From assembly GCF_055900595.2 (NCBI RefSeq), contig NZ_CM148325.1: a stretch of 64,000 bases of DNA; one strand, 5' to 3'. Position 1 is the stretch's first letter; each line of letters begins with the position of its first letter. Made by a program: the position numbers. Positions 30,601 to 32,899 of the stretch are shown here, piece by piece.

Positions 30601-32899
30601 TTACATTCACTGCAAGTCGTTTGCCCAGAACCCGGATTACTGAAACGATATGACGATATTGTTTCAGAATACAATAAAATGATTTTTACGCGTAGCCTTG
30701 AAAATCAGGATCTAATCAAACTGCGTGACTGGCTCCTCCCTATTCTTATGAACGGACAGGTCAAGATTAAATAACCCCCAACGTATTTTTCGAAGCGCAG
30801 TCCAAGTTTGAACTGCGCTTCACTTCCCCCAACAAAAAACCTGCCATCCATTACTGGTAGTGATTCCTCTCACATTTTCCATGTATTAATTATTATTGTT
30901 ACTACTACACCCAAACGACCTATAATCGTAAGCGGCTCGCCAGAACCGTATTGATATTTACTGAGCGCTCAGATCAACTTTCCAGGGTAACAGATCGCGT
31001 ATCCAGTTTGCCTGTCATTCCTAGATATGTTCAATGACGTAACGCAGCCATTTTTCTGGAGCCATATTGTTCAGACGGCATGTACCAATCCGCAGGTACA
31101 GCATCGCCGCATCCTCAAGTAATGCCGGTAATTTGGGGCGTAATTCTGTTGCGCTTTTACTGAACACAATGCCGTATTCAGTAAGAAGTCCAAGAACATG
31201 ATCTATCAGTTGTGTCCTTCCATCGAGATCAACCGATGCATTTTCAAAAAAGCCTGGACGTTCTGTAGGTCCAGACTTTTTATTGGTACCAGTCGTATAG
31301 TTCTATATTGATAGGTTTCAGCTATTGCTGTGCGTCGTTATAATCATTTTTCTGACGCCATTGATAAGATTTAACATGTTGTGCTGGATGCAATATTACA
31401 TCATAGTTGAGTTCCCTTATTTCCTGTGGGCAGTGATGGGATGTCCCGCAAGCCTTCATCGCAACGGTCATTTTGGCTGTTATACCAGCCAGTTAAGCAG
31501 TTGGTTGTGAGAAAGTTTGATCTTTCCCGCGTGATTGCCACGAGCATTGATACTGAAAAGATAAAAGTTCGTTTTAGCCTGAGCGATGTCGGTAATTTTC
31601 TGTTCAGTCATGGCCTTTCTCTTACTTTTGTGGTTAAAATTTATTCGCTATGGCGCAATTGAAAGCGGTCGTGAAGGTGGGGGAAGACTATCTCATCACT
31701 TACCATATTTCCGACATATTCTCACAACAAAATACCACGTAACTATTGATGAATATTGTTCTCTCCTGAGCAGCGTTTATGCTTTAATTGCTAAATCGAT
31801 TTAATTAGTTTAGCAATTAGTATATTGGAGCCTTTATGAGCACAAGAGTATGGGTACTTGGTGATGCGGTTGTTGATTTATTACCCGAAAGCCAGGGGAG
31901 ACTACTACAGTGTCCTGGCGGGGCGCCTGCTAATGTTGCAGTCGGTATCGCAAGGCTGGGGGGGAAAAGTGCCTTTATTGGCAAAGTTGGCGATGATCCT
32001 TTCGGTCGCTTTATGTATCAGACACTGAGTACAGAAAATGTTGATACACGTTATATGTCTCTTGATCCTCAACATCGCACCTCAATTGTGGCTGTAGGAC
32101 TTGATGAGCAAGGAGAAAGAAACTTTACCTTTATGGTACGCCCAAGTGCCGATCTTTTTTTACAACCTGATGGCCTTCCTGCATTTGGGCCGGGTGAATG
32201 GCTCCATCTTTGTTCCATTGCGCTCAGTGCAGAACCTTCCCGAAGTACCGCATTTCTGGCTATGGAGAAAATACGTCAGGCTGGCGGAAACATCAGTTTT
32301 GATCCCAATATCCGCAGCGATCTCTGGCAGAGTGAAGCGCTATTAAGGAAATACCTTGATCGCGCACTTTCGCTGGCGAATATCGCTAAATTGTCCGAAG
32401 AAGAGTTGCTATTCATCAGTGGCGAAAGCCAGGTTCAGCAAGGCGCATATTCATTAGTACAACGTTATTCGTTGACTTTATTGCTTATCACACAAGGAAA
32501 AAATGGCGTACTTGTGTATTTTCAGGGGCAGTTTATCCACTATCCCGCCAAACCTGTTTCTGTCGTCGATACGACCGGGGCAGGAGATGCTTTTGTCGCT
32601 GGATTACTTGCCGGTCTGGCTGATTCTGGAATACCAACAAATACCAGACAGCTTGAACGAATCATTGTACAAGCTCAGATTTGTGGTGCTCTGGCGACCA
32701 CGGCTAAAGGCGCGATGACCGCCTTACCCCGACAACACGATCTCCCTTCACAATAGTGATCCTGCTGTTGTATCTGTAACCCGATTTGTCGTGCCTGTCA
32801 CATTTACTAAATCGGTTTAGCGAAAATAATTGCTTTGGCTAAAAAGTCAGCTTTATTATCAACACCTAAACCGGTTTAGCATTTTAGCAATTTTTATAA

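What the first reader, a model, noticed from the sequence alone, without database searches (positions are those of the whole stretch)
31024..31296. Start-less 88-codon minus-strand reading frame between hsdS and scrK: likely gene remnant
The minus-strand frame from 31296 down to the stop at 31021 translates without stops as ...GPTERPGFFENASVDLDGRTQLIDHVLGLLTEYGIVFSKSATELRPKLPALLEDAAMLYLRIGTCRLNNMAPEKWLRYVIEHI but has no plausible start. It looks like the C-terminal piece of a protein truncated when the modules were joined, and may mark a recombination junction.
Basis: seen in the sequence. Interest (0 to 1): 0.25.

Follow-up and report, generated by a model that had tools for sequence, protein, structure and literature searches.

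The report
Fused wreck of two insertion sequences
The start-less reading frame is not a gene. It runs across the welded leftovers of two dead mobile elements, an IS1111/IS110-type transposase gene fused to the tail of an IS66 transposase gene, at the seam between the restriction-enzyme genes and the sucrose-utilisation genes of an E. coli island, which is ordinary genomic debris.

Summary
The open frame is real: 93 codons, 31302→31024 on the minus strand, with no start-type codon before GTG 31167. Its length alone is not unusual, since 31% of shuffles of the hsdS–scrK spacer give an equally long frame.

It is a chimera of three pieces:
- 31302→31219 is an out-of-frame read of a decayed IS110-family (IS1111-type) transposase gene.
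- 31218→31108 is the true frame of that gene (residues 133–169, 84% identical to relatives).
- 31112→31024 is the C-terminal part of an IS66-family TnpC (ISCro1-like, about 88% DNA identity). It ends at a nonsense mutation, not at the ancestral stop (TAA 30960–30958).

The two elements are joined inside a 6-bp microhomology (ATGCGG, 31107–31112).

The whole stretch 30928–31703 is best read as one former IS66 element. An IS1111-type element had inserted 5 bp inside its left terminal repeat (GTAAG, 31703–31699). A deletion of about 3.3 kb then gutted the composite.

The remnant sits at the hsd/scr module boundary and occurs in 107 of 5,426 complete E. coli genomes. It is ordinary and low in interest.

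Side note: this IS1111-type lineage appears to home specifically into IS66 terminal repeats.

The parts
31024..31302 (-). The stop-free frame of the finding (93 codons). It is a chimera of three pieces: 31302→31219 out-of-frame IS1111-type sequence, 31218→31108 in-frame IS1111-type transposase (aa 133-169), and 31112→31024 in-frame IS66 TnpC C-terminus.
30928..31112 (-). Right end of an IS66-family (ISCro1-like) element. The IRR tip GTAAGCGGCTCGCCAGAACCG starts at 30928. The last 51 sense codons of tnpC run 31112→30961, and the ancestral stop is TAA 30960-30958.
   Evidence: blastn gives 89% identity over 185 bp to the 3' end of an annotated ISCro1-family tnpC (L005) and 87.5% to L015. Pfam DDE_Tnp_IS66_C E 2e-5. 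PGAP calls the equivalent of 30958-31116 an incomplete transposase pseudogene in CP030152.
31015..31023 (-). Two nonsense mutations in the IS66 tnpC remnant: TAG 31023-31021 (Gln in ISCro1-type TnpC) and TGA 31017-31015 (Trp). The first is the 'stop' that ends the finding's frame.
31107..31112 (-). Joint between the IS1111-type transposase gene and IS66 tnpC, within a shared 6-bp microhomology (ATGCGG on the minus strand).
   Evidence: Four-way alignment. The blastn end points overlap at 31107-31112. In the junction search, 45 genomes match only from 31107 onwards.
31107..31698 (-). 5' 592 bp of an IS1111-type (IS110-family) insertion sequence. It comprises the left extension TGATGAG (31698-31692), the subterminal IR ATAGTCTTCCCCC (31691-31679), the transposase ATG at 31611, and codons 1-169. 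The reading frame is broken by frameshifts near 31472, 31328 and 31218 and by an in-frame TAA at 31482-31480. Catalytic D (GID→DIA) and E (AMEACG→AMKACG) are substituted.
   Evidence: The repaired 170-aa translation hits IS110-family proteins at E 2e-66 with 74% identity and 100% coverage. Pfam PF01548 scores 33.6 bits against a cut-off of 29, and NCBIfam NF033542 gives E 1.6e-24. DNA identity is 86% to the intact element in pRKI3099b.
31699..31703 (-). GTAAG, read as the outermost 5 bp of the left terminal inverted repeat of the IS66 element into which the IS1111-type element had inserted.
   Evidence: All seven other contexts of the element have GTAAG or GTAAC immediately before it and unrelated DNA beyond. 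The ISCro1 IRL is GTAACCGGCTCATTT.... In five of those contexts the right flank continues as an IS66-type IR, in one (L014) the IR assignment is uncertain, and in one (L015) that flank is deleted.
31021..31167 (-). 48-aa ORF called 'hypothetical protein' WP_001324285.1 by RefSeq/PGAP in many genomes. It is an annotation artefact spanning the IS1111-type/IS66 joint.
31480..31611 (-). 43-aa ORF called 'hypothetical protein' WP_000139282.1 by RefSeq. It is the N-terminal stub of the dead IS1111-type transposase, ended by a CAA→TAA nonsense mutation.
31719..31835 (+). Native scrK upstream region, shared at about 93% with scr loci that carry no IS remnant (for example next to ygcE). It marks the left edge of the scr module.

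Best explanation
Window 30928-31703 is the gutted carcass of a composite mobile element and has no present function.

Inferred history:
1. An IS66-family element (ISCro1-like, about 2.7 kb) lay between what are now the hsd and scr modules.
2. An IS1111-type (IS110-family, RNA-guided DEDD transposase) element of about 1.38 kb inserted 5 bp inside the IS66 left terminal repeat (GTAAG^CG...), in the same orientation as tnpA-B-C.
3. A deletion of about 3.3 kb, resolved in the microhomology ATGCGG, joined codon 169 of the IS1111-type transposase to the last 51 codons of IS66 tnpC. It removed the IS1111-type catalytic C-terminal domain and non-coding (seekRNA) region, plus IS66 tnpA, tnpB and most of tnpC.
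4. Point decay followed: three frameshifts, three nonsense codons and two catalytic-residue substitutions.

The finding's open frame is a by-product. By accident the deletion joined the two transposase frames in phase, and the out-of-frame stretch just upstream happens to lack stops.

Shown directly: the two homologies, the joint, the frameshifts and nonsense codons, the IR tips, and the distribution. Inferred: the order of events and the single-deletion origin.
For: - IS66 part: DNA 87.5-89% to the 3' ends of annotated IS66/ISCro1-family tnpC genes. Pfam IS66_C hit. IR tip at 30928, with unrelated flanks in three contexts.
- IS110/IS1111 part: the frameshift-repaired translation gives E 2e-66 to IS110-family proteins and passes the Pfam PF01548 cut-off. 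tblastn places aa 1-47, 47-95, 96-132 and 133-169 in three different frames.
- Joint: one search shows the window following the IS1111-type relatives up to TGAGGATGCGG and the IS66 relative from ATGCGGCG onwards.
- Composite model: pRKI3099b (L015) carries an intact 343-aa relative followed, in the same orientation, by an ISCro1-like tnpC. Both window halves map collinearly onto it, 2.26 kb apart.
- Homology of the IS1111-type part ends at 31703/31704 in every independent context. It is always preceded by GTAAG or GTAAC, the tip of IS66 IRs.
- The subterminal IR and the 7/3-bp extensions match the IS1111 definition in PMC11187229.
- The identical joint is single-copy and chromosomal in 107 of 5,426 complete E. 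coli genomes.
Against: - No 8-bp target duplication flanks the presumed IS66 ends (ctataatc at 30920-30927 vs catatttc at 31704-31711). The original insertion site is therefore no longer intact, or the two ends never belonged to one element.
- The IRL tip is only 5 bp.
- The closest collinear arrangement (L015) is only 86-87% identical and has suffered its own, different deletion. No direct progenitor was found.
- The Pfam IS66_C hit (25.1 bits) is below the gathering score (30).
Confidence: 0.88

Rival explanations
1. The two IS fragments were never parts of one composite element. They were brought together by illegitimate recombination between separate loci or replicons, for example while the hsd and scr modules were being assembled.
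For: There is no target-site duplication around 30928/31703. The left flank of the IS66 tip differs between genomes, and the first ~45 bp of the IRR are diverged in APEC E16002, showing further recombination in this spot. The island is crowded with other IS66 copies.
Against: The same order and orientation (IS1111-type followed by IS66 tnpC) occurs in pRKI3099b. The IS1111-type element is preceded by an IS66 IR tip, as expected if it sat in the IRL of the very IS66 whose right end survives. A single intramolecular deletion is more parsimonious.
Confidence: 0.09
2. One reading: a simple C-terminal remnant of one protein-coding gene, truncated at its 5' side when the modules were joined.
For: The frame is open and ends at a stop. 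It lies at a module boundary.
Against: Two unrelated protein families contribute to the frame, and the upstream 28 codons are out of frame. The gene's own start and N-terminus are still present upstream in other frames. The break lies inside the frame.
Confidence: 0.02
3. A small functional protein (48 aa from GTG 31167, as annotated by PGAP) or a domesticated fusion peptide.
For: RefSeq annotates WP_001324285.1 as a hypothetical protein in many genomes. The sequence is ≥99% identical across 106 of 107 genomes.
Against: The identity reflects recent common descent, since the flanking non-coding DNA is equally conserved. PGAP itself calls the same DNA a transposase pseudogene in other assemblies. 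The ORF straddles a deletion joint and ends at a nonsense mutation. It contains no domain beyond a 22-residue sub-threshold IS66_C fragment.
Confidence: 0.01

Closest known systems
IS66-family insertion sequences of the ISCro1 group (tnpA-tnpB-tnpC, IRs starting GTAAGCG/GTAACCG)
   Same: The 185 bp at 30928-31112 are 87.5-89% identical to the right end of annotated ISCro1-family elements. This includes the IR tip and the C-terminal TnpC codons.
   Different: Only 7% of the element survives. tnpA, tnpB and more than 90% of tnpC are gone, two nonsense codons are present, and there is no target duplication.
IS1111-group members of the IS110 family (e.g. ISEc11; Siddiquee et al. 2024, PMC11187229)
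   Same: DEDD N-terminal domain. A 13-bp subterminal IR with a 7-bp left extension in the window. Relatives also have the 3-bp right extension, a 343-aa transposase and a ~250-nt downstream non-coding region.
   Different: The window copy is truncated after codon 169. It lacks the Transposase_20 domain, the non-coding (seekRNA) region and the right end. It carries three frameshifts, a nonsense codon and D→A and E→K substitutions at catalytic positions. I could not assign an ISfinder name.
IS4321/IS5075 (IS1111 family; insert into the terminal IRs of Tn21-family transposons; Partridge & Hall 2003, cited in PMC11187229) and ISEc21 (targets a conserved site inside IS3-family transposase genes; PMC11187229)
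   Same: All are site-specific IS110/IS1111-type elements whose target is a conserved sequence of another mobile element. Here the target is the GTAAG^CGNCTC tip of IS66-family IRs.
   Different: The target element is different (IS66 family). The targeting is inferred from seven other natural insertion contexts, not from experiment. I found no publication describing it.

Membership tests
IS66 family (remnant) | Terminal inverted repeat beginning GTAAGCG | tested here: met
   GTAAGCGGCTCGCCAGAACCG starts at 30928 and its first 45 bp are identical to the ISCro1-type IRR in L005. The flanks diverge exactly there in three contexts.
IS66 family (remnant) | TnpC transposase with the IS66 C-terminal element | tested here: inconclusive
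   Pfam PF13817 gives E 2e-5 but 25.1 bits, below the cut-off of 30. NCBIfam NF033517 scores only 12 bits. The fragment is too short for the profiles. Membership rests on 87.5-89% DNA identity and a 25/31-residue protein match to annotated IS66-family tnpC genes.
IS66 family (remnant) | tnpA-tnpB-tnpC gene set and 8-bp target-site duplication (intact, mobile element) | tested here: not met
   There are no tnpA/tnpB and no tnpC N-terminus between 30928 and 31703. The flanks are ctataatc vs catatttc. It is a relic, not an element.
IS110 family, IS1111 group (remnant) | N-terminal DEDD (RuvC-like) transposase domain PF01548 | tested here: met
   The repaired 170-aa translation scores 33.6 bits against a cut-off of 29 and gives NF033542 E 1.6e-24. 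It is 74% identical over 100% of its length to P0001. This holds only after three frameshifts are repaired.
IS110 family, IS1111 group (remnant) | C-terminal Transposase_20 domain PF02371 | tested here: not met
   The window copy ends at codon 169 (...LLEDA). Relatives continue with ENELTD..., and the intact L015 protein has PF02371 at residues 212-293.
IS110 family, IS1111 group (remnant) | Subterminal IRs of 11-13 bp with extensions of 7 bp (left) and 3 bp (right), the IS1111 criterion quoted in PMC11187229 | tested here: met
   The left end in the window is TGATGAG + ATAGTCTTCCCCC (31698-31679). In complete relatives the ends are CGATGAG+ATGGTCTTCCCCC ... GGGGGAAGACCAT+ATA. The right end is absent from the window.
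IS110 family, IS1111 group (remnant) | Non-coding region downstream of tnp encoding the guide (seek/bridge) RNA | tested here: not met
   This region is deleted from the window (the homology stops at 31107). It is present in relatives, where it carries segments matching the IS66-IR target. No Rfam family matches in 30600-32000.
IS110 family, IS1111 group (remnant) | Intact DEDD catalytic residues | tested here: not met
   GIDLAK→DIAQAK (D→A) and AMEACG→AMKACG (E→K) relative to P0001-P0004. NDYNDA is retained. The assignment of these motifs to the DEDD residues comes from my knowledge of IS621 (D11, E60, D102, D105).
Functional protein-coding gene | A start codon, an uninterrupted ancestral frame and a recognisable complete domain | tested here: not met
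   The first start-type codon is GTG 31167, and the frame is a three-part chimera ending at a nonsense mutation.

The most novel reading that the evidence does not exclude
The IS1111-type element whose 5' half lies in the window belongs to a lineage that homes, presumably guided by an RNA from its downstream non-coding region, into position 5/6 of the terminal inverted repeats of IS66-family elements (GTAAG^CGNCTC). That would make it an IS parasitising another IS. I could not find this target described in the searchable literature.

In seven other natural contexts the element sits at the same place, in both IRL and IRR. Two short segments of its non-coding region match the left flank (GTAAG or GTAAC, covarying with the flank) and the right flank (GTCACAT or GGCTCAT).

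The window itself holds only a dead copy. The probability given is for the targeting being both real and undescribed.
Probability: 0.35. Interest if true: 0.35.

Novelty: already known. Interest (0 to 1): 0.12.

Why it matters
It matters little for biology. It is a decayed insertion-sequence relic of a kind abundant in E. coli islands.

Practical value:
- Two RefSeq "hypothetical proteins" (WP_001324285.1 and WP_000139282.1) should be read as fragments of transposase pseudogenes.
- The relic pins the hsd/scr module boundary to 30928 and 31703–31719. It also supplies a diagnostic joint sequence shared by about 2% of complete E. coli genomes.
- The side observation that this IS1111-type lineage targets IS66 terminal repeats adds a natural example of RNA-guided IS-on-IS homing. 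This could interest people studying seek/bridge-RNA recombinases.

Tried and rejected
- Pfam and NCBIfam on the raw 93-aa translation found only a weak IS66_C hit and missed the IS110 part, because just 37 in-frame residues survive.
- Rfam with permissive thresholds on 30600-32000 found nothing, so there is no bridge/seek-RNA or other known RNA.
- I tested whether the hsdRMS module is bracketed by direct repeats of the same IS66 end. The remnant at 24462-24630 and the intact IS66 copies at 38.7-44.3 kb share no detectable DNA similarity with 30928-31112, so this was rejected.
- I tested whether the IS110-type/IS66 joint is a transposition junction (one element inserting into the other at that point). 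This was rejected because the joint is internal to both elements.
- The intact 339-aa IS110-family gene next to the related remnant in L002 is only 37% identical over 46 residues. It is a different element.
- The genome-contig scan for the right-end motif returned one locus (Xenorhabdus) and the metagenome scan returned six. Together with loci fetched earlier this was enough for seven flank comparisons, but not for statistics.
- Literature and supplement searches for an IS1111-type element targeting IS66 IRs found nothing.
- An inverted-repeat search for the IRs of the window's other IS66 copies was uninformative.

Full report
**Observation.** The window is an E. coli chromosomal island. It is 100% identical over the queried 1,051 bp to strain 504239 and many others. 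The 50 kb of that record fetched here (window 1–50000) has gene coordinates that coincide with the window's ORFs. The hsdR-hsdM-hsdS genes end at 30774 and scrK starts at 31836. It is open for 93 codons, from 31302 to 31024, and ends at TAG 31023–31021. Its first start-type codon is GTG 31167. Length alone is unremarkable: 31% of shuffles of the 1,061-bp spacer contain an equally long open run.

**What the frame is made of.** Profile searches of the raw translation hit only its last ~22 residues (Pfam DDE_Tnp_IS66_C, E 2e-5, below the gathering score).

At DNA level, 30928–31112 is 87.5–89% identical to the 3' end of annotated IS66-family (ISCro1-like) tnpC genes together with their terminal repeat. 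The repeat tip GTAAGCGGCTCGCCAGAACCG begins at 30928, and the flanks diverge exactly there in three contexts. Compared with the ISCro1-type TnpC tail (…YVIEHIQDWPANRVRDLLPWKVDLSAQ*), the window has TAG in place of Gln (31023–31021) and TGA in place of Trp (31017–31015). The ancestral stop is TAA 30960–30958. So the stop that closes the finding's frame is itself a decay mutation.

From 31107 upward a different module begins. After frameshift repair, its conceptual translation (170 aa) matches IS110-family transposases at E 2e-66 with 74% identity and full coverage. It passes the Pfam PF01548 cut-off (33.6 vs 29 bits) and hits NCBIfam "IS110 family RNA-guided transposase" at E 1.6e-24.

tblastn with relative P0002 places the gene in three frames:

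| Residues | Window coordinates | Frame |
|---|---|---|
| 1–47 | 31611→31471 | the finding's frame, interrupted by TAA 31482–31480 |
| 47–95 | 31474→31328 | second frame |
| 96–132 | 31328→31218 | third frame |
| 133–169 | 31218→31108 | the finding's frame |

Hence only 37 of the finding's codons are authentic IS110-type frame, and the 28 codons upstream of them are an out-of-frame read. The catalytic motifs GID and AMEACG read DIA and AMKACG.

**The joint.** A four-way alignment shows the window following the IS110-type relatives through …CTTGAGGATGCGG and the IS66 relative from ATGCGGCG… onward. The crossover therefore lies within the shared hexamer ATGCGG (31107–31112). It is internal to both elements, so it is a deletion or illegitimate-recombination joint, not a transposition junction.

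**The larger structure.** Plasmid pRKI3099b carries an intact 343-aa relative (PF01548 + PF02371). It is followed, in the same orientation, by an ISCro1-like tnpC. Both halves of the window map collinearly onto it, 2.26 kb apart.

The homology of the IS110-type part ends at 31703/31704 in all independent contexts. Comparing the flanks of seven other contexts gives a consistent picture:

- The element has 13-bp subterminal repeats (ATGGTCTTCCCCC / GGGGGAAGACCAT), a 7-bp left extension (CGATGAG) and a 3-bp right extension (ATA).
- These are the signature of the IS1111 group as stated in PMC11187229.
- The element is always preceded by GTAAG or GTAAC.
- Where the right side is intact, five of six contexts are followed by the rest of an IS66-type terminal repeat (for example CGGCTCGCCAGAACCGTATTG in L011 and CGTCTCATTTAAACCGTCT in L019). 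For the sixth, L014, the IR assignment is uncertain.
- The ISCro1 IRL is GTAACCGGCTCATTTAAACCGTCTGG.

In the window the order is GTAAG (31703–31699), TGATGAG (31698–31692), then ATAGTCTTCCCCC (31691–31679).

The most economical reading is that 30928–31703 was one IS66 element with an IS1111-type element in its left repeat. It was later reduced by a deletion of about 3.3 kb (about 0.8 kb of the ~1.38-kb IS1111-type element plus about 2.5 kb of the ~2.7-kb IS66). Against a pristine history, no 8-bp duplication flanks the two tips. In addition, the left flank and the first ~45 bp of the IRR differ in APEC E16002, so further exchanges happened here.

**Context and distribution.** Homology with scr loci that lack any IS relic starts at 31719, so the relic sits exactly at the hsd/scr seam. 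The identical joint is present once, chromosomally, in 107 of 5,426 complete E. coli genomes. A further 45 genomes carry only the IS1111-type side.

RefSeq annotates 31021–31167 and 31480–31611 as hypothetical proteins in most carriers. In CP030152 it calls the equivalent of 30958–31116 an incomplete transposase pseudogene, in line with the present reading.

**Comparison with the known.** Both pieces belong to well-known IS families, and mosaic, decayed IS relics at island module boundaries are commonplace. IS110/IS1111-type elements that target conserved sequences of other mobile elements are known: IS4321/IS5075 target Tn21 repeats, and ISEc21 targets IS3-family transposase genes (PMC11187229).

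The apparent specificity of this lineage for IS66 repeats was not found in the searchable literature. In intact relatives, two segments of the downstream non-coding region match the target. One reads GTAAG or GTAAC in step with the left flank. The reverse complement of the other reads GTCACAT or GGCTCAT, matching the right flank. This fits the seekRNA model, but it rests on few independent insertions and no experiment. None of this machinery survives in the window.

**Verdict.** It is ordinary, already covered by existing knowledge, and of low interest. The only mildly novel element is the side observation on IS66-repeat targeting.

Noticed in passing
Relatives: L007 2892-4288, L011 (minus strand) 3593-2220, L014 1900-3293, L015 4060-5383, L018, L019; window 31679-31703: The IS1111-type element is found at the same position (GTAAG^CGNCTC) of IS66-family terminal repeats in at least six further contexts, in both IRL and IRR. 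Its downstream non-coding region contains segments matching the left flank (GTAAG/GTAAC, covarying) and the right flank (GTCACAT/GGCTCAT). This suggests RNA-guided homing into IS66 ends. I found no description of it in the searchable literature.
   Followed up: partly
window 24462-24630 (minus strand): A second IS66-family tnpC remnant (a PGAP pseudogene, frameshifted and lacking its N-terminus) lies just upstream of hsdR. The hsdRMS cassette is therefore bracketed by two IS66-family relics in the same orientation. They share no detectable DNA similarity with each other or with the intact IS66 copies at 38.7-44.3 kb.
   Followed up: partly
window 31021-31167 and 31480-31611 (minus strand): RefSeq proteins WP_001324285.1 (48 aa) and WP_000139282.1 (43 aa) are annotated as hypothetical proteins in many genomes, but they are fragments of transposase pseudogenes. 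PGAP annotates the first region inconsistently, as a pseudogene in CP030152.
   Followed up: yes
L006 (NZ_CP126944.1, APEC E16002) 4978-5060 vs window 30918-31000: The same relic lies next to scrK, but with a different left neighbour (an HTH regulator, sugar isomerase, RidA, MFS module instead of hsdRMS). The first ~45 bp of the IS66 IRR are diverged (GTAAGTTGTTTGTCTGAAGCG...), as if patched from another IS66-family member.
   Followed up: partly
L002 1844-1780 (minus strand); also L017, L020, L022: In one recurrent locus the right subterminal repeat of the IS1111-type element is followed by CTCATCGCTTAC. This is the mirror image of the left junction (GTAAG CGATGAG) rather than ATA plus an IS66 IR, and it gives a perfect 25-bp terminal inverted repeat. 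In L002 a different, intact 339-aa IS110-family gene is also inserted inside this element. The origin is unexplained.
   Followed up: no
L003 (NZ_CP015244.1) 3835-4542: In E. coli O91 RM7190 the related IS1111-type relic is truncated at a different point (equivalent to window 31175). There it abuts a cobalamin riboswitch-btuB module next to iha. These relics are recurrent break points in island mosaics.
   Followed up: no
window 30792-30821: An imperfect 30-bp palindrome (GAAGCGCAGT...ACTGCGCTTC) lies 18 bp after the hsdS stop. It is preceded by a T-run but not followed by one, so it is not a canonical intrinsic terminator on either strand.
   Followed up: no
P0007 (ENA metagenome protein, 213 aa): A gene call in a metagenome assembly reads straight through several frames of the same relic, including the IS1111-type/IS66 joint. 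The likely cause is extra indels in that assembly. It shows how such relics seed spurious proteins in databases.
   Followed up: no
window 1-24000 and 38700-50000: Context from the identical RefSeq record. T6SS genes (tssA/E/F/G/J, PAAR, Tli1), nucleases and an IbrB/PAPS-reductase pair lie upstream. Two intact IS66 elements (ISEc23-type and another), a split H-NS-family gene, IS100 and IS2 copies lie downstream of scrR.
   Followed up: no
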